64,000 nucleotides of DNA from an uncultured Chloroflexia bacterium (lineage in GTDB: Bacteria > Chloroflexota > Limnocylindria > Limnocylindrales > CSP1-4): contig CAVPPB010000003.1 of the NCBI GenBank assembly GCA_963707215.1, positions 608,001 through 672,000 of the forward strand. Direction: 5' to 3'. Below, in pieces: positions 55,282 through 61,668 of this stretch. The notes below the pieces were generated by a model. It ran no database searches, was not told the origin of the DNA, and worked only from the letters and a program-made list of their open reading frames with translations. Position numbers and translations under genes: made by a program. Each line of letters opens with the position of its first letter. Within the stretch, counting starts at the first letter, position 1.

Positions 55282-55467
55282 TCAGATCGGGCTGGTCTCG
55301 ACGAGCAGGATGAAGGCGGCTCCGGAGACCCAGGAGAGGAGCGCCAGCTCGACGCTGGGATCCGCTCCCAGCAGCCCGACGGCGACCACGAAGACGAGCA
55401 GTCCCACCAGGGCGGCCGCCGCGGCCTTCACCAGCCTGAGGACGATCTCGAAGACGAGAGGGGTCAT
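55282..55467 (-). CDS. Small 2-TM membrane protein (61 aa)
   Basis: ATGA overlap with the recR stop; two hydrophobic segments. Confidence 0.75.
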   Translation of the reverse strand: MTPLVFEIVLRLVKAAAAALVGLLVFVVAVGLLGADPSVELALLSWVSGAAFILLVETSPI

Positions 55468-56093
55468 CGATCGGTCCCCATCGCCCGGCGACCCTGGAGG
55501 GCGCGGATCAGGGTGACCTCGTCAGCGTACTCGAGGTCGCCGCCGACCGGGATGCCGCGGGCGATCCGGCTGATCGTCCCGACGCTCCCTTCGAGGCGTT
55601 CGGCGAGGTACATCGCGGTCGCCTCCCCTTCGAGGGTCGGATTGGTCGCCAGGATCACCTCGGCGACCTGGTGGCCGTCCCGCTGAGCCTCATCGACCCG
55701 GGCGAGCAACTCCCGGATGCGGAGCCGCTCGGGGCCGATACCGTCGAGCGGCGAGATCGCACCGTGGAGCACGTGGTAGCGACCCCGGAACTCGCCGGTC
55801 CGCTCGATCGCGAGGACATCGAGGGGCTCCTCGACGACGCAGAGGCGGGACTCGTCGCGGCCGGTATCGCGGCAGATCGGGCACGTCGGTGCGTCACTGA
55901 TGTTGAAGCAGATGTCGCAGAAGACGACCTCGTCTCGAACGGCCACCAGGGCAGCCGCGAGGGTCCGAGCCTCGGTATCGGGTGCTCGCAGCAGGTGATA
56001 GGTGAGCCGCTGGGCCGTCTTCGGGCCGATGCCAGGCAGGCGGGAGAAGGCCTCGATGAGCCGGGCGACCGGCTCGATCATCGGCGTCGCCAT
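55464..56093 (-). CDS. recR: Recombination mediator RecR
   Basis: LPGIGPKTAQRL, C4 Zn finger, YHVLHG.ISP.DG, TOPRIM EGEATA, G.P.GGDLEYAD. Confidence 0.98.
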   Translation of the reverse strand: MATPMIEPVARLIEAFSRLPGIGPKTAQRLTYHLLRAPDTEARTLAAALVAVRDEVVFCDICFNISDAPTCPICRDTGRDESRLCVVEEPLDVLAIERTGEFRGRYHVLHGAISPLDGIGPERLRIRELLARVDEAQRDGHQVAEVILATNPTLEGEATAMYLAERLEGSVGTISRIARGIPVGGDLEYADEVTLIRALQGRRAMGTDR

Positions 56094-56103
56094 GGTGGCC
56101 GGC

Positions 56104-56409
56104 TCAGATCCCGGGCAGGCGAAGCCCGCCGGTGACGGCCGACATCTTCGACTCGGCCAGCTCCCGGGAAGCCCGGAGCGCGTCGTTGACGGCGGCCACG
56201 ATCAGGTCCTGGAGCATCTCGGCGTCGTCGGGGTCGATCGCCGCGGGGTCGATCTCGACGGAGACCAGCTCCTGTTTGCCGGTCACCGTGGCCCGGACCA
56301 CCCCGCCCCCGGCGGAACCGTCGCAGGTCGCAGTCTCCAGCTCGGCCTGGATCCGCGCCATCTCCTGCTGCATCTGCTGGGCCATCCGCTGCAGGTTCGC
56401 CATGCTCAT
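56104..56409 (-). CDS. ybaB: YbaB/EbfC nucleoid-associated protein
   Basis: AQ.MQ, GSAGGG.V, EMLQDLI.AAVNDA; dnaX-ybaB-recR synteny. Confidence 0.95.
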   Translation of the reverse strand: MSMANLQRMAQQMQQEMARIQAELETATCDGSAGGGVVRATVTGKQELVSVEIDPAAIDPDDAEMLQDLIVAAVNDALRASRELAESKMSAVTGGLRLPGI

Positions 56410-56476: not shown

Positions 56477-58400
56477 TCACCCGATCTCCCCGACGTCGAC
56501 CAGGTCCTCGCCGAAGATCCGTCGCGCCTCCGACACGAGCGTCGAGCCGTCCTCGTCCACCGGGAGCTCGGCCCATCCGTCGACGTTCGTGGCGACGCAG
56601 CGGACCGTCACCGACCGCCCGAGGAAGTGGCCGATCCCCTCCTCCAGGTTGCCCCGCCGGCGCTCGGCCACGTCCTTCAGGAAGGCCTGCCCCTCCGGGA
56701 AGCCGAGTGTGATTACCGCTCCCTCCACCGCGACGGGCCGACAGGCGCTGATGAGCGGCTTGGTGGGCGGGTGCTGGCTGATGTAGGTGACGATCTCCGG
56801 CCACTGGTCGCGCAGGGCGTCCAGCGTGCCGGCGTCGCTGGACGCCTGCGGCGCGGCCGCCCGATGCGGCTCGGACGTCGGCTTCGGCACCTCCACGAGC
56901 AGGGCCTGGGCCGGCGGGCTGGACCCAGCCGCTCCGACCTCTGGTGGCGCCAGCAACGGCTCGGGCGCGGGCGCGGGCTCGGGCGCGGGCGCGGGCTCAG
57001 CGCGGGCGCGGGCTCTAGCGCGGGCTCTGGCTCTAGCGCGGGCTCTGGCTCTAGCGCGGGCTCTGGCTCTAGCGCGGGCTCTGGCTCTAGCGCGGGCTCT
57101 GGCTCTGGCGCGGTCGCGGGCTCTGGTTCGTGCTCGTGCTCGGGGCTCGGGGCGTCGGGGACGGCCCGCCGGGTAGCCGCCGACCTCGACGGCCTGCGCA
57201 CCGTCCCGCCCTCAGGCCGGCCGCCGAGGTCGGGCGCATCGGGCGTGTCGGGCGTTCCGGATGCGTCGGGCGTGCCGGACCCGAGGGTCGCCGCCGCGAC
57301 GGCCCGAGGATCGACGCGTCGCGACCCCACGGGGGCGGGCTCGAGCGTCACCTCAGAGCTGACCGAGGGGTCCCCGAGGAGGGTCAGTTCGAGCTGGAAG
57401 CGCAGACCGCCGGGACCGGCGCGCGTCGGGTCGACGGAAGCCAGCGCCGATGCCGCGACAGCGAGCCGGCCGAGCGCCGATGGATCGCCGCCGCTGGTGA
57501 GGCGCTCGACGATCGCCGAGCGCAGCTCGTCGACGACCTGATCCAGGAACGAGCGCAGGTCGCGCCCACGATCCTCCAGCTCGGCCAGGATGGCCAACCC
57601 GGCAGCGGCGTCGTGCTCCACGAGCGCCCGCACGAACCCGTCGACTTCGTCCGCCTCGGCGAGGCCCAGGAGCTCGCGGACCTGATCCGCGGTGAGCCGG
57701 CCGTCGCCCGAGGAGAGCAGCTGGTCGAGCATCGATTCCGCGTCGCGCATACCGCCGGAGGCGAGGCGAGCGACCAGCCCGATCGCCTCCTCGTCGGCGT
57801 CTCGGCCGTCGGCAGCGAGGATGGTCCGCAGCTTCCCCTCGATCTCGGCAACCGACAGGCGCCGGAAGTCGAACCTCTGCACGCGCGACAGGACAGCGGG
57901 TCGGATCTGGGAGCTGTCCGTCGTGCAGAACACGAAGACGACGTGGTCGGGTGGTTCCTCGAGCGTCTTGAGGAGCAGGTCCCAGCCTTCCTTGATCCGC
58001 TGGACCTCGTCGACGATGAAGACCTTCCGGACGAAGATCCGACGGGGCCGTGTAGATCCGCGGCAGGAGCTCGCGGATGTCATCGACCCGGTTGTTGGAT
58101 GCGGCATCGAGCTCGATCACGTCGAGCGCCCGACCCTCGCGGATGGCGACGCAGCTGGAGCAACGGTCGCAGGGCTCGCCGCCGTTCGGTTCGCAGGCAG
58201 TTGATGGCCTTGGCGACGATCCGTGCCAGTGACGTCTTGCCGGTCCCGCGGGGCCCGACGAAGAGGAGGGCGTGGGCCAGCCGGCCGGTACGGACGGCGT
58301 TCCGGAGCGTCTCGACGACCGGTGTCTGGCCGACGATCTGGCTGAACGTCTGGGCCCGCCAGCGTCGGTACAACGCCTGGTGCGGGCTGGTGGACGTCAT
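56477..58400 (-). CDS. dnaX: DNA polymerase III subunit gamma/tau (several indels)
   Basis: [41 protein letters not shown]; frames switch near 58190-58150, 58040 and 57000. Confidence 0.92.
56960..57105. repeat. 18-bp coding tandem repeat in the DnaX linker
   Basis: Five perfect copies of TAGCGCGGGCTCTGGCTC (57016-57105; EPEPAL) plus three EPAPAL/P variants. Confidence 0.93.
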
Positions 58401-58445
58401 CGGCCCTCCGGCTGCGACGACCCGCGGTTCGCGGGATGGCAGTAC

Positions 58446-58711
58446 GCCGTGCACCCACCGTCGATCCGAGCGCCCCCGTGCCCACCGTTCGGACCGGCTC
58501 GGACCAGGCCGATCCGCGGCACCCGACGATCATCGCTTAGTGCTGCTTCCTTCCGGATCTGACACGGTTCGCGAGTCGCCGCTGCGCGGGACCCGGCCCT
58601 CAGCACCGATCGCGAGGGCGGCCTTCGAGGACGGGGACCTCGGGTGGGAGTTCAGCCCTGCTGGAGCGGATTGCAGGTACAGGGCACCGCTAGTTCCCCG
58701 CCTAGCACGGC
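58446..58711 (-). ncRNA. ffs: Large (Alu-domain) bacterial SRP RNA
   Basis: 5' GCCGTGCTAGGCGGGGAACTAGCGGTGCCCTGTACCTGCAATCCGC as in Bacillus scRNA; helix 8 TCAGATCCGGAAGGAAGCAGC; 3' GCACGGC closes the stem. Confidence 0.95.
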
Positions 58712-58730
58712 GTCGACAGGATAGCAGGGG

Positions 58731-58818
58731 TGGCGGAGAGGGCGGGATTCGAACCCGCGATGGGTTGCCCCATACCGCATTTCCAGTGCGGCGCCCTAGG
58801 CCTCTAGGCGACCTCTCC
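58731..58818 (-). tRNA. tRNA-Ser (GGA)
   Basis: Long variable arm; anticodon CT-GGA-AA; G73; CCA. Confidence 0.96.
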
Positions 58819-58865
58819 ACGGGCCGGGATCAGCCGGCCCGGCGGGCCGGCCAGAGGTGTCGTGG

Positions 58866-58952
<87 letters not shown>

Positions 58953-58988
58953 GCGGGGGATGGTACCAAGAGGCGACCGAGTGGGCGG

Positions 58989-59434
58989 TCAACCGCCCTG
59001 GACGAGTCCCGCGAGGAGCTCCTCGGCCTCGTCGCGCCGGATCCCGCTGATGACCTTCATCCGGCGAGGGAGACCGTCGTGCTGGGCCAGCTGGATCACG
59101 GTGCCGGCGGCGCCCTCGATCGGATCGGGCACAGCGAAGACCAGCGTCTCGATGTCGCACTCGAGGAGCGCGCCGACGCACATCGGACATGGCTCGTGGG
59201 TGGCGAAGATCGTCGCGCTCTCCCATCCGGTCCGGCCCGAGCTTGCGGGCGGCCTCGCGCAGGGCCATGACGACGGCATGCGCCGTCGGATCGCTCGTCT
59301 CGGCGACCCGCTCGTGCGAGCGGGCCACCATCGCCTCGTCGACGACCGCGACGGCAGCGCTCGGGCGCTCGCCGAGCGACCGGGCGCAACTGGGCCTCCG
59401 CGAGCGCTTCGCCCATGTACAGCTCGTAGTTCAT
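58989..59434 (-). CDS. TadA-like Zn deaminase-fold protein lacking the catalytic Glu (about two indels)
   Basis: Reconstructed across frames: MNYELYMGEALAEA..GERPSAAVAVVDEAMVARSHERVAETSDPTAHAVVMALREAA..IFATHEPCPMCVGAL..LVFAVPDP..GAAG. Confidence 0.85.
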
Positions 59435-59585
59435 CGGGCTGATGATACCGGCCCGGGGCGACCGGCCGCGCCACCTCGCCCCCTAGCCCGAGACACGGGA
59501 CCACCGGGCCGTCGTACGATCCAGGGCGGCCGGCATCATCCGGTCCCCGCGACCACGACCCGAGCCCCGGAGGGCCCCGACGACC

Positions 59586-60765
59586 ATGACGACCCAGCGC
59601 CGCATCGGCATCCTCACCGGCGGGGGCGACGTCCCCGGCCTCAACAGCGTCATCAAGAGCGTCGTCTACCGCGCCGGGGAGATGGGCGACGAGGTCGTCG
59701 GCATCCGGCGCGGCTGGAAGGGCCTCACCCACCTGCCGCCGGGCGAGGACCTGGACGGCGAGTGGGTCCGGCCCTTGGACCGGATCAACACCCGGACGAT
59801 CGACCGGACCGGTGGGACGATCCTCCACACCTCCCGGACCAACCCCCGCAAGATGAGCGGGAAGCGGCTGCCTCCACACCTGTCAGCAGAGCGCACCGCC
59901 TCGATGGCCGTGGCCGACGACCTCTACGACCTGACACCGGTCGTCCTCGACAACATCGAGCGCCTGGGGATCACCGACCTGATCGCGATCGGCGGTGATG
60001 ACACGCTCTCGTACTGCGCGAACCCTCGATGCCGCCGGGATCTCGCTCATGGCGGTCCCCAAGACGATGGACAACGATGTCCAGGGCACCGAGTACTGCA
60101 TCGGGTTCTCCTCGGCGATCACCCGGGCCAAGGAGCTCCTGAATCGGCAGCGGACCACTCTCGGCAGTCACGAGCGCATCGGCGTCTTCCGGATCTTCGG
60201 CCGCGATGCCGGCTTCACTGCTCTCTATACGGCATACGTCGCGTCTGCCCGATGCGTCATCCCGGAGGTCCGCTACGACCTGGACCGGCTGGCCGCCCTC
60301 CTGGCCGACGACCATCGGAGCAACCCGAGCCACTACGCCATCGTCATCACCGCCGAGGGCGCGATCTGGGAGGGGGCCAGGATGGTCGACGTCGGCGACG
60401 CGGATGCCTTCGGCCATCGCCACAAGGCGAACGTCGGCGACGCGCTTGCCGCCGAGATCAAGACCCGGACGGGGATCGAGACCCTGGCCTCGGAGCTGAC
60501 CTACGACCTGCGCAGCGGCGAGCCCGACTCGCTCGACTCCATGGTGGCGACGACGTTCGCCAACATCGCCATGGACCTCATCGCCGACGGCCACACCGGC
60601 CTCATGACAGCCGTCCGGGGCGGCCGCTATGCGACCGCTCCCCTGCCCCCCGAGGGCCTCGGACCGCGGACCGTGGACGTCGATGCGCTGTACAACGTGG
60701 AGCGCTTCCGACCCCGCTACGACGGCCGCCTCGGGGACCCGGTCCTGCTGGTCTCCGTGACCTGA
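59586..60765 (+). CDS. 6-phosphofructokinase, PfkA family, probably PPi-dependent (indel near 60020)
   Basis: LTGGGDVPGLN, GGTIL.TSR, IGGDDT, PKTMDND, GR.AG, EG, Y.LRSG. Confidence 0.9.
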
Positions 60766-60792
60766 GCCACGACCAGCCGCGGGCGGCGGCGC

Positions 60793-61668
60793 TCAATCGA
60801 GGCCGGCCAGCTCGCGGAGCGGCCGGGCCACCGCTGACACATCGTCGTCGGCGTGGCCTCGGGCGATGAGCCCCGTCTCGAGTTGCTCGCAGAGCGCCAC
60901 GACCGGCAGGGCGACGCCGACCTCCCGGGCGAGGTCGAGGGCGATGCCGAGGTCCTTGCGGTGGAGGGCGACCCGGAACCCAGGCGGGTACTCGCCGGCG
61001 ATCATCCGCCCCGAGCGGTTGGCCAGGACCCAGCCCTGCGCCGCCCCGCCCGACAGTGCGGTCACGACCTGGCCCGGATCGAGGCCGGCCTTGGTCGCCA
61101 GGACGATGCCCTCGGCGACGCCGAGGTAGACCCCGGCCAGGATGGCCTGGTTGACGGCCTTGGCGGCCTGGCCCGCTCCGACCGAGCCCAGATGGGTAAC
61201 CGTCCGTCCGAGCGTCTCGAGGAGCGGGCGGGCCCGGGCGACATCGGTCTCCAGCCCGCCGACCAGGATCGCCAGGGTCGCATCGCGGGCACCCTCGGGG
61301 CCACCGGTCACGGGGGCATCGACGAAGCCGACGCCGCGCTCCGCCAGCACCCCGGCGATGGCACGGCTGGCAGCTGGTGCGATCGTCGAGCAGTCGACGA
61401 CGAGCGAGCCGGGAGCGACCCCCTCTCCGATGCCTCCGGCGCCGAGGACGACCGCCTCGACGTCCGGGGTGTCGGACACGCAGATGAAGGTGACCTCGGC
61501 GGCGGCGGCGGCCTCGGCCGGGGACGACGCCTCCTTCGCCCCCATGGCGACGAGGGACGCTGCGCGCCCGGGCGTCCGGTTCCACACGGTGACATCGTGA
61601 CCCGCCTTCAGCAGGTTCGCGGCCATGGCCGAGCCCATCGAGCCGAGTCCCACGAATCCGAGTCGCAC
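60793..61668 (-). CDS. NAD(P)-dependent beta-hydroxyacid dehydrogenase (3-hydroxyisobutyrate / tartronate semialdehyde reductase family)
   Basis: GFVGLGSMG, WNRT, D.STI.P, DAPV.GG, GQ.AK.VNQ, F...L..KDL. Confidence 0.92.
   Translation of the reverse strand: MRLGFVGLGSMGSAMAANLLKAGHDVTVWNRTPGRAASLVAMGAKEASSPAEAAAAAEVTFICVSDTPDVEAVVLGAGGIGEGVAPGSLVVDCSTIAPAASRAIAGVLAERGVGFVDAPVTGGPEGARDATLAILVGGLETDVARARPLLETLGRTVTHLGSVGAGQAAKAVNQAILAGVYLGVAEGIVLATKAGLDPGQVVTALSGGAAQGWVLANRSGRMIAGEYPPGFRVALHRKDLGIALDLAREVGVALPVVALCEQLETGLIARGHADDDVSAVARPLRELAGLD

What the first reader, a model, noticed from the sequence alone, without database searches (positions are those of the whole stretch)
58989..59434. 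Syntenic tadA carries HAV instead of HAE: a bacterial Tad3/ADAT3-like pseudo-deaminase?
Seen: the gene reads GAT CCG ACG GCG CAT GCC GTC GTC ATG GCC = DPTAHAVVMA, with Val (GTC, 59272-59274) at the catalytic Glu position. GTC is two substitutions from either Glu codon, so this is unlike the single-base indel errors around it. The Zn ligands (His, PCPMC) and the D..GAAG region are kept. The substrate-binding Asn of TadA (G.N) appears replaced (SHE), and GEVP has become GERP. Known: the HxE Glu is the essential proton shuttle of TadA, and eukaryotic Tad3/ADAT3 has Glu-to-Val at this site and acts as the non-catalytic tRNA-binding partner of Tad2/ADAT2. The tadA-SRP RNA-dnaX-ybaB-recR order matches the Bacillus tadA locus. 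Inference: this lineage may use a heterodimeric, eukaryote-like I34 enzyme with an active paralog elsewhere, or it may have repurposed TadA as an RNA-binding protein and decode CGN without inosine.
Basis: partly seen in the sequence, partly recalled or inferred. Interest (0 to 1): 0.78.

Follow-up and report, generated by a model that had tools for sequence, protein, structure and literature searches.

The report
Conserved catalytically dead TadA in Limnocylindria
This soil and water bacterium keeps an intact copy of the tRNA-editing enzyme TadA that has lost its catalytic residue, while the one tRNA that TadA normally edits has changed so that it no longer needs editing.

Summary
The minus-strand gene at 58989-59434 is the positional tadA (tadA, two tRNA-Ser, SRP RNA, dnaX, ybaB, recR). 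It reads HAV, with Val (GTC, 59272-59274) where TadA has its catalytic Glu; the Zn ligands are kept. Its two frameshifts are single-base insertions absent from a same-genus genome and from short-read contigs of near relatives. With those bases removed the gene is 139/147 identical to the genus-mate, dN/dS about 0.035.

The Glu-less form is conserved across two families of Limnocylindria (Chloroflexota): 23 of 24 family relatives, 20 of 20 loci read in a second family, and 120 of 120 nearest protein clusters. It evolves under purifying selection as strong as that on active TadA in a sister family.

It coincides exactly with tRNA-Arg(GCG) replacing tRNA-Arg(ACG). The sister family keeps ACG with canonical HAE TadA, and a streamlined family with GCG has lost the gene.

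The window's genome has no other CDA-fold gene and no A34 tRNA, so the ADAT2/ADAT3-like heterodimer idea fails. Decoding CGN without inosine is supported.

Best reading: a TadA-derived pseudo-deaminase kept for an unknown non-catalytic role. This is a new variant of a known kind.

The parts
58989..59434 (-). tadA-derived gene. It would encode 147 aa once two single-base insertions are set aside. It is a Glu-less ('HAV') pseudo-deaminase.
   Evidence: Searches give the three reading frames. Searches give TadA NF008113 as best family for both fragments. One search aligns it to the intact same-genus ortholog. One search gives 139/147 aa identical, dN 0.026 and dS 0.758.
59272..59274 (-). Val codon GTC at the position of TadA's catalytic Glu (HAE to HAV).
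   Evidence: At this column, active sister-family TadA has E in 27/27, while the HAV clade has V 36, L 2, I 1 of 39.
59278..59280 (-). His codon, first Zn ligand. It is retained.
   Evidence: The residue is invariant in 66/66 aligned sequences.
59178..59192 (-). PCPMC, the two Cys Zn ligands, preceded by the EPC Glu. All are retained.
   Evidence: C82, C85 and E80 are invariant in both the HAV and HAE groups.
59311..59313 (-). Glu codon at the position of TadA's conserved strand-2 Asn (the E of 'SHER').
   Evidence: The column reads N in 27/27 active TadA. In 39 HAV proteins it reads D 29, E 5, R 3, Q 1, A 1.
59386..59386 (-). Extra base (first frameshift), probably an assembly error.
   Evidence: One search shows a gap here in G001. 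One search shows contigs of related strains in X1 and X3 lacking one base at 59386/59387.
59217..59217 (-). Extra base (second frameshift), probably an assembly error.
   Evidence: One search shows a gap here in G001. One search shows the base left out in all covering contigs of X1, X2 and X3.
58867..58952 (-). tRNA-Ser(CGA), 36 nt downstream of the gene.
58731..58818 (-). tRNA-Ser(GGA).
58447..58710 (-). Large bacterial SRP RNA.
   Evidence: RF01854, 178 bits.
56477..58454 (-). dnaX, broken into several frames in this assembly.
   Evidence: It is intact in G001.
56104..56409 (-). ybaB/ebfC.
   Evidence: PF02575, 119.8 bits.
55464..56093 (-). recR.
   Evidence: RecR HhH, ZnF, Toprim_4 and RecR_C domains.

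Best explanation
The gene is the positional ortholog of tadA. In an ancestor of two Limnocylindria families it lost three things: the catalytic Glu (to Val), the conserved substrate-pocket Asn (mostly to Asp or Glu), and several anticodon-loop contact positions. [quoted passage not shown] I34 is therefore no longer needed.

The gene did not decay. It stayed intact, still encodes a TadA-fold protein with all three Zn ligands, is predicted to form a homodimer, and has evolved under purifying selection across dozens of genera. It is therefore a pseudo-deaminase kept for a non-catalytic role.

Shown here: the orthology, the residue changes, the tRNA switch, the absence of a partner, and the purifying selection. 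Inferred: loss of deaminase activity (from the established role of the HxE Glu), and that the retained role involves binding a nucleic acid or nucleotide. The actual role is unknown. The frameshifts in the window are most likely assembly errors.
For: Identity:
- TadA NF008113 is the best family for both fragments.
- A profile of 22 orthologs hits solved TadA best: B. subtilis 7cph at 1e-35, also E. coli 1z3a and S. aureus 2b3j. ADAT3 reaches only 9e-17.
- The AF2 model (pLDDT 79.9, pTM 0.81) matches TadA structures at TM 0.85-0.89.

Orthology:
- The HAV gene is followed by tRNA-Ser(CGA) and tRNA-Ser(GGA) in 22/22 family loci, with dnaX within 1.5 kb in 16/22.
- Canonical HAE tadA lies on the same strand upstream of the tRNA-Ser and SRP RNA cluster in 4 of 5 sister-family genomes tested: 29 nt away in G050 and 2.5-3.4 kb away in G058, G048 and G052.

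Conservation:
- The Glu site is non-Glu in 24/24 family loci, in 20/20 loci of family f4, and in 120/120 nearest clusters.
- The Val codons are synonymously diverse.

Selection:
- Median NG86 dN/dS is 0.27 (f1, 231 pairs) and 0.21 (f4, 136 pairs), against 0.31 for active TadA of f3/f5 (351 pairs).
- G000 against G001 gives dN 0.026 and dS 0.758.

Single origin: HAV proteins form one side of a branch with SH-aLRT 100, on a stem of 1.38 substitutions per site. This holds with the trait column dropped.

tRNA coupling, class sample of 121 genomes:
- Every pattern match is GCG in f1 (31/35), f2 (5/5) and f4 (37/40).
- In f3, 20 of 22 matching genomes are ACG only.
- All 29 f3/f5 TadA loci read are HAE with the Asn.
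- f2 has GCG and no TadA hit in 16/16 and 5/5 genomes.

No partner and no substrate: this locus is the only CDA-fold hit in the genome, and none of the 52 ARAGORN predictions has A34.

Homodimer: predicted complex score 0.74 against a best control of 0.00. That mark was reached by 20 of 30 solved homomers and 1 of 23 proteins solved as single chains. The three runs agree in 100% of contacts and partner pLDDT is 92. TadA dimers are solved, so this pass may be from memory and shows likeness only.
Against: - No activity or binding was measured. Loss of catalysis is inferred from the Glu.
- An acidic residue sits at the Asn site in 34/39 HAV proteins. It could hint at a changed pocket chemistry rather than a dead one.
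- The streamlined sister family f2 lost the gene entirely, so the retained role is dispensable in some backgrounds.
- Positions that contact the anticodon loop in TadA vary freely in the HAV clade. These include the Lys site, the Asn-His loop and the C-terminal FF..RR. This argues against canonical tRNA binding and leaves the proposed binding role without direct support.
- One f4 bin (G085) holds both an HAE and an HAV locus.
- The deep placement of the HAV clade relative to f3 TadA is unresolved (supports of 81-86).
- Transcription is not shown. The one RNA run laid gave only sparse contig cover.
- The contigs that lack the two inserted bases are from related strains, about 92% identical, not from this strain.
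Confidence: 0.75

Rival explanations
1. ADAT2/ADAT3-like heterodimer. The HAV protein would be the non-catalytic partner of an active HAE TadA paralog encoded elsewhere, together making I34.
For: The Glu-to-Val change mimics Tad3/ADAT3 (Iyer 2011, PMC3239186, passages). One f4 bin, G085, holds both an HAE TadA (184.5 bits) and an HAV gene.
Against: - The own genome has no second hit to NF008113, PF14437 or PF00383 even at E<=1. Completeness is 84.8%.
- Most relatives have one TadA-like hit, and the extra hits read were cytosine- or guanine-deaminase-like.
- There is no A34 tRNA to edit.
- In G085 each of the two loci is followed by its own tRNA-Ser(CGA), so the same single-copy syntenic locus appears twice. 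A mixed bin explains this more simply.
Confidence: 0.03
2. Decaying pseudogene. After tRNA-Arg switched to GCG, tadA became useless and is eroding; the frameshifts in the window are real.
For: There are two frameshifts in 446 nt. The catalytic and substrate-contact residues are lost. Family f2 and two f3 genomes with GCG have no TadA.
Against: - ORFs are intact in 22 other genera.
- dN/dS of 0.21-0.27 equals or beats that of active TadA.
- Against G001 there are 62 nucleotide differences but only 8 amino-acid changes, and no stop once the two bases are dropped.
- The Zn ligands are invariant.
- The neighbouring genes dnaX and pfk are broken in the same assembly.
- Both insertions are absent from contigs of near relatives.
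Confidence: 0.03
3. Still an enzyme. The Asp/Glu now at the Asn site, or another residue, takes over proton shuttling, or the Zn site catalyses a different reaction on a new substrate.
For: Zn ligands, the EPC Glu and the fold are strictly kept. An acidic residue appears at the Asn site in 34/39 proteins. Purifying selection is strong.
Against: - The acidic residue is not universal. It is R in 3, Q in 1 and A in 1 of the 39, and N in G007.
- I know of no CDA-superfamily deaminase that works without the HxE/CxE Glu (recalled).
- Val, Ile and Leu are interchangeable at the Glu site, as expected of a packing residue.
Confidence: 0.1
4. Sequencing or assembly error at the codon. The real gene would read HAE.
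For: The assembly clearly carries indel errors.
Against: The same residue is seen in independent assemblies of more than 40 genomes and in 120/120 nearest clusters. No listed difference at the codon appears in the laid contigs.
Confidence: 0.005

Closest known systems
Bacterial TadA (tRNA adenosine-34 deaminase; E. coli 1z3a, S. aureus 2b3j, B. subtilis 7cph/YaaJ)
   Same: - Best sequence and fold match.
- Same size.
- Same Zn ligands and EPCxMC motif.
- Predicted homodimer.
- Same chromosomal position next to SRP RNA, dnaX, ybaB and recR.
   Different: - Catalytic Glu is Val.
- Strand-2 Asn is Asp/Glu.
- The Lys and Asn-His loop contacts and the C-terminal FF..RR are lost.
- Scores 75-128 bits, below the 150-bit NCBIfam cut-off.
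- No ACG tRNA substrate in the genome.
Eukaryotic Tad3/ADAT3
   Same: [quoted passage not shown]
   Different: - ADAT3 has an N-terminal tRNA-binding domain and works only with catalytic ADAT2. Here there is no partner gene and no extra domain.
- The origin is independent: the protein is nearer to TadA than to ADAT3.
Loss of tadA with tRNA-Arg ACG to GCG in Mollicutes (Yokobori et al. 2013, PMC3711424, abstract and passages)
   Same: The same logic and order of events. tRNA-Arg(UCG) is present first: f3 genomes with ACG already have UCG. Then ACG changes to GCG and TadA activity is dispensed with.
   Different: In Mollicutes the gene is weakened and then deleted, in reduced parasitic genomes. 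Here a Glu-less gene is kept under selection in free-living genomes of 2-3.8 Mb.
Bacterial phyla reported to carry tRNA-Arg(GCG) instead of ACG (Thermotogae, Spirochaetes; PMC8007984, passages)
   Same: G34 decoding of CGU/CGC without inosine.
   Different: Those reports concern absence of ACG and tadA. No retained inactive TadA is described in the passages I read.

Membership tests
TadA (tRNA adenosine(34) deaminase, NCBIfam NF008113) | HxE motif with catalytic Glu | tested here: not met
   Reads HAV. The site is non-Glu in 39/39 HAV-clade proteins and Glu in 27/27 sister-family TadA.
TadA (tRNA adenosine(34) deaminase, NCBIfam NF008113) | Zn ligands His plus PCxxC, within EPCxMC | tested here: met
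   H52, E80, C82 and C85 are invariant.
TadA (tRNA adenosine(34) deaminase, NCBIfam NF008113) | Conserved Asn in strand 2 (Iyer 2011 table) | tested here: not met
   Glu in the window. Across the clade: D 29, E 5, R 3, Q 1, A 1 of 39.
TadA (tRNA adenosine(34) deaminase, NCBIfam NF008113) | Score above the curated family cut-off (150 bits) | tested here: not met
   Intact HAV orthologs score 75-128 bits. Sister-family and other Chloroflexota TadA score about 128-194 bits.
TadA (tRNA adenosine(34) deaminase, NCBIfam NF008113) | TadA fold and homodimer | tested here: met
   Foldseek TM 0.85-0.89 to TadA structures. Predicted homodimer score 0.74 against a best control of 0.00; 20 of 30 solved homomers and 1 of 23 single chains reach the mark. 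This may be from memory of solved TadA dimers.
TadA (tRNA adenosine(34) deaminase, NCBIfam NF008113) | Substrate tRNA-Arg(ACG) encoded in the genome | tested here: not met
   tRNA-Arg genes are GCG, UCG, CCG, CCU and UCU. No A34 tRNA is found. Genome completeness is 84.8%.
TadA (tRNA adenosine(34) deaminase, NCBIfam NF008113) | A-to-I deaminase activity | not testable with these tools
   Needs an enzyme assay.
Tad3/ADAT3-type non-catalytic subunit | Lacks the HxE Glu while keeping a Zn site | tested here: met
Tad3/ADAT3-type non-catalytic subunit | Catalytic Tad2/ADAT2-like partner in the same genome | tested here: not met
   No second CDA-fold hit.
Tad3/ADAT3-type non-catalytic subunit | N-terminal tRNA-binding domain, and closest kinship to ADAT3 | tested here: not met
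   The protein is 147 aa, deaminase domain only. ADAT3 scores E 9e-17 against TadA 1e-35.

The most novel reading that the evidence does not exclude
The paired changes Glu to Val and Asn to Asp/Glu turned an adenine-deaminating pocket into a non-catalytic binding pocket. The homodimer would now act as a reader or chaperone of an RNA, most attractively the G34 anticodon loop of the lineage's own tRNA-Arg(GCG). That gene lies 0.06-22 kb from the HAV gene in family genomes. This would be the first bacterial TadA-derived pseudoenzyme with a new function, and an independent replay of the step that produced ADAT3.
Probability: 0.15. Interest if true: 0.8.

Novelty: new variant of a known kind. Interest (0 to 1): 0.62.

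Why it matters
I34 in tRNA-Arg and its enzyme TadA are usually treated as near-universal and essential in bacteria, with Mollicutes as the studied exception. Three points follow from this case.

1. A large free-living, uncultured class, Limnocylindria, common in soil, sediment and fresh water, has dropped inosine decoding by an A34-to-G34 anticodon change. The same GCG-without-TadA state is widespread across sampled Chloroflexota.
2. Two families did not delete tadA. They kept a Glu-less version under purifying selection for a very long time, with no catalytic partner. This points to a function of the TadA scaffold beyond deamination. It is also a natural bacterial counterpart of the origin of ADAT3.
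3. It gives a clean comparative system for experiments: an active HAE family, an HAV family, and a family with the gene deleted, all within one class.

There is also a practical point. IMG names these proteins 'tRNA(adenine34) deaminase'. That name is very likely wrong and would mislead surveys of tRNA modification.

Tried and rejected
Checks that gave nothing useful:
- Promoter and terminator scan of 58400-59700: no sites.
- pI and net charge of HAV against HAE proteins: no meaningful difference (pI 5.1-5.5 against 5.7), so no clue about RNA binding.
- Domain fusions. Long representatives with the HAV motif (P0035, 662 aa, and five others) carry only the deaminase domain.
- ESM Atlas look-ups of two odd Glu-less representatives (P0059, P0043): only generic TadA clusters, no taxonomy.

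Reads:
- No run held the stretch at high share; the best was 0.23.
- The laid contigs come from related strains, so they cannot prove an error in this assembly.
- Sparse cover of the gene in the one RNA run (X15) is not evidence of transcription.

Corrections to my own steps:
- My first synteny check with 1.5-kb flanks found dnaX or tRNA-Ser next to HAE tadA in 0-1 of 29 f3/f5 loci. It wrongly suggested paralogy. A direct search showed the cluster lies 2.5-3.4 kb downstream in f3.
- My regexes mis-registered the motif in a few rows. I re-read those rows from the printed sequences.
This call resends the same report with that field added.

Rows dropped before the dN/dS and tree work:
- L187, L193, L195, L152 and L163: my ORF filter failed, though all five read HAV or HAE.
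- L022: the N-terminus is missing.
- L027: a cytosine-deaminase-like hit of G020.
- L028: G007, interrupted by N.

Limits of the searches:
- The tRNA pattern searches need the D-arm ATAGAGC and miss variants. G043's GCG tRNA, for example, was found only by BLAST. Non-matches therefore do not show absence. Families f11 and f15 matched neither the ACG nor the GCG pattern and had no TadA hit.
- Paper supplements were closed. Supplementary tables of Yokobori 2013 and of Diwan & Agashe 2018 may list tadA and tRNA-Arg states for Chloroflexi that I could not see.

Full report
**What is in the window**

The minus strand of 58989-59434 encodes a 147-residue TadA-like protein that has to be read in three frames. 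Frame 2 holds GERP, SHER and DPTAHAV. Frame 3 holds EPCPMC, GAAG and the C-terminus. The Val of HAV is GTC at 59272-59274.

Both fragments hit TadA (NCBIfam NF008113) as best family, and the Pfam deaminase families PF00383 and PF14437.

Downstream on the same strand lie tRNA-Ser(CGA), tRNA-Ser(GGA), the large SRP RNA, dnaX, ybaB and recR. Upstream, on the opposite strand and diverging, lies pfk.

**The frameshifts**

The gene is 93% identical in DNA to the intact ortholog of a same-genus genome (G001). It carries two extra single bases, at 59386 and 59217.

With those two columns dropped there is no stop. 139 of 147 residues are identical although 62 nucleotides differ. dN is 0.026 and dS is 0.758.

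Short contigs of related strains (about 92% identical) in three DNA runs lack the base at 59217 in every covering contig. In two of those runs they also lack one at 59386/59387. No difference at the Val codon is among the listed differences (60 weaker rows were not shown).

These contigs are not from this strain, so they show only that the frame is intact in near kin. However, dnaX and pfk next door are broken in the same way, and the 5-contig genome scores only 84.8% complete. I read the frameshifts as assembly errors.

**No partner, no substrate**

In the window's genome (3.26 Mb) this locus is the only match to NF008113, PF14437 and PF00383, even at E<=1.

ARAGORN predicts 52 tRNAs, and none has A at position 34. 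The arginine tRNAs are GCG, UCG, CCG, CCU and UCU. Two or three further predictions are odd in length and probably false.

**Who it is**

Record titles of the loci that encode close relatives name MAGs of Chloroflexota. Most are Candidatus Limnocylindria or Limnocylindrales. That search found 366 confirmed stretches and listed 80, but it was biased because one search pattern was the HAV motif itself.

**Conservation in the family**

- Of 24 genomes from other genera of the same family (f1), 23 carry a Glu-less ortholog. The 24th, G020, is 66% complete.
- Across the 24 loci read, the Glu site is V in 22, I in 1 and L in 1.
- 22 intact proteins align with 65% mean column identity. The His, both Cys, the EPC Glu and DPT are invariant.
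- The 120 nearest protein clusters in the large database read V (115) or I (5), never E.
- IMG names them 'tRNA(adenine34) deaminase'. NCBI names them 'nucleoside deaminase'.

**The split inside the class**

I searched a sample of 121 Limnocylindria genomes with a tRNA-Arg pattern that leaves position 34 open to A or G.

- Only GCG was returned in f1 (31 of 35 genomes matched), in the small-genome family f2 (5 of 5) and in family f4 (37 of 40).
- In family f3, 20 of the 22 matching genomes have ACG only, one has GCG only (G086) and one has both (G134, 76% complete).

TadA follows this split.

- All 29 f3/f5 loci read are canonical: HAE, the strand-2 Asn, Lys and Asn-His loop residues, and the C-terminal FF..RR.
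- All 20 f4 loci read are HAV (19) or HAL (1), with the Asn replaced.
- f2 has no TadA-like hit in 16 of 16 and 5 of 5 genomes. Its syntenic interval holds other genes.
- f3 genomes that carry ACG already carry UCG and CCG as well. This is the order of events proposed for Mollicutes (PMC3711424).
- Two f3 genomes, G043 (97% complete) and G086, have a GCG tRNA with an f3-type body and no strong TadA hit. They look like further independent switches, in which the gene was lost rather than kept.

**Orthology**

The HAV gene sits directly upstream of the two tRNA-Ser genes in 22 of 22 family loci. Canonical tadA sits upstream of the same tRNA-Ser and SRP RNA cluster, on the same strand, in 4 of 5 f3/f5 genomes tested. 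In the fifth, the genes lie on different contigs.

**Single origin and selection**

In a tree of 79 sequences, the 39 HAV proteins form one side of a branch with SH-aLRT 100, on a stem of 1.38 changes per site. The same result holds when the Glu/Val column is left out, with one change of state. These are quick trees, and the deeper nodes are weak.

Median pairwise dN/dS:

| Group | dN/dS | Pairs |
|---|---|---|
| f1 (HAV) | 0.27 | 231 |
| f4 (HAV) | 0.21 | 136 |
| f3/f5 (active HAE TadA) | 0.31 | 351 |

All values are. dS is high, 0.8-0.95, so the ratios are rough but comparable across groups.

**The phylum**

In 301 sampled Chloroflexota:

- The GCG pattern occurs in 157 genomes, which is 124 of the 268 outside Limnocylindria.
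- The ACG pattern occurs in 10, all in families f9 and f28.
- Outside Limnocylindria, a TadA hit at E<=1e-20 occurs in 35 of 268. Of these, 24 are strong (147 bits or more).
- All 24 strong hits read HAE, and none of those 24 genomes has the GCG pattern.
- 9 of the 10 ACG genomes have strong TadA.
- 10 of the 11 weaker hits were fetched. All are other HAE deaminases.

GCG without TadA is therefore common in this phylum. A retained Glu-less TadA was seen only in Limnocylindria f1 and f4.

The window's GCG tRNA has the same acceptor stem, D-arm and encoded CCA as the ACG tRNAs of f9 and f28. It differs in the loop, UUGCGGA against CUACGGA. This fits an anticodon change within the gene.

**Structure**

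The AF2 model of the same-genus ortholog (pLDDT 79.9, pTM 0.81) superposes on TadA structures at TM 0.85-0.89.

Two copies are predicted to pair: score 0.74, best control 0.00. That mark was reached by 20 of 30 solved homomers and 1 of 23 proteins solved as single chains. The three runs agree in 100% of contacts and partner pLDDT is 92. Because TadA dimers are solved, this shows likeness, not proof.

**How it most likely works**

Shown:
- The Zn site, the fold and the dimer-interface residues are under constraint.
- The proton-shuttle Glu is gone.
- Positions that are invariant in active TadA and contact the anticodon loop now vary. The Lys site reads V/R/E/D and others. The Asn of the Asn-His loop is mostly Pro.

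Inferred:
- The protein no longer deaminates.
- It no longer binds an anticodon loop in the canonical way.
- Selection nevertheless preserves something that needs the folded Zn-bound dimer.

The acidic residue at the Asn site, present in 34 of 39 proteins, could mark a changed ligand. It is not universal, which argues against a new catalytic role. I cannot tell what the retained role is.

**Literature**

I found no paper describing a Glu-less bacterial TadA ortholog or TadA loss in Chloroflexota. What I saw of each paper:

| Paper | What I saw |
|---|---|
| PMC3711424 | abstract and passages |
| PMC6063277 | passages |
| PMC12255301 | one passage |
| PMC3239186 | passages |
| PMC8007984 | passages; it states that Thermotogae and Spirochaetes carry tRNA-Arg GCG instead of ACG |
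| PMC8629427 | one passage |
| PMC10454642 (B. subtilis yaaJ dispensable) | search listing only |
| PMC8216470 and PMC7713142 (ADAT2/3 structures) | search listing only |

Supplements were closed.

**Verdict**

This is a new variant of a known kind, of moderate to high interest.

Noticed in passing
G000 contig C3:1515117-1515192 (outside the window) and the whole genome: The genome has a tRNA-Ile(UAU) and only two CAU tRNAs. It has no TilS hit above the cut-off; the best is 20.5 bits against a cut-off of 93.6. This lineage may read AUA with a UAU tRNA instead of lysidine, which is rare in bacteria.
   Followed up: partly
Phylum sample of 301 Chloroflexota genomes: tRNA-Arg(GCG) with no detectable TadA is common across Chloroflexota. 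The GCG pattern occurs in 124 of 268 genomes outside Limnocylindria, and strong TadA in only 24 of 268. ACG and TadA are confined to a few families (f9, f19, f28 and a few others).
   Followed up: partly
window 56477-58454 (dnaX) and 59586-60869 (pfk): Both genes are split over several frames, like the tadA-like gene. The assembly seems to carry many single-base indels. Both extra bases in the tadA-like gene create a GCGC.
   Followed up: partly
window about 57000-57250, minus strand (dnaX linker): There is a low-complexity Glu-Pro-Ala-Leu repeat ('EPEPAL' units) in the DnaX reading frame.
   Followed up: no
Proteins P0043, P0059, P0149, P0018: Other TadA-like representatives of unknown origin also lack the Glu (HPI, HAV, HAA, HAP) and the Asn. 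They keep more TadA-like features than the Limnocylindria clade. Glu-less TadA may have arisen more than once.
   Followed up: partly
G085: L151 (contig C60) and L188 (contig C56): One f4 bin holds a canonical HAE TadA (184.5 bits) and an HAV gene. Each is followed by its own tRNA-Ser(CGA), and GC content is similar (0.70). It is probably a mixed bin, but a real coexistence is not excluded. G023 likewise has two HAV-type loci.
   Followed up: partly
G043 (L260) and G086 (L258), family f3: Two genomes of the otherwise ACG-plus-TadA family have tRNA-Arg(GCG) next to tRNA-Arg(UCG) and no strong TadA hit. These are likely independent, more recent switches that ended in gene loss.
   Followed up: partly
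G007, L028: This family member's ortholog reads HPV, the same tripeptide form as I recall for some ADAT3 proteins. It keeps an Asn at the strand-2 site. The gene is interrupted by a run of N.
   Followed up: no
Family loci L040-L063 and L046: tRNA-Arg(GCG) always sits beside tRNA-Ser(GCU). In family genomes it lies 0.06-22 kb from the HAV gene, and directly upstream of it in G016.
   Followed up: partly
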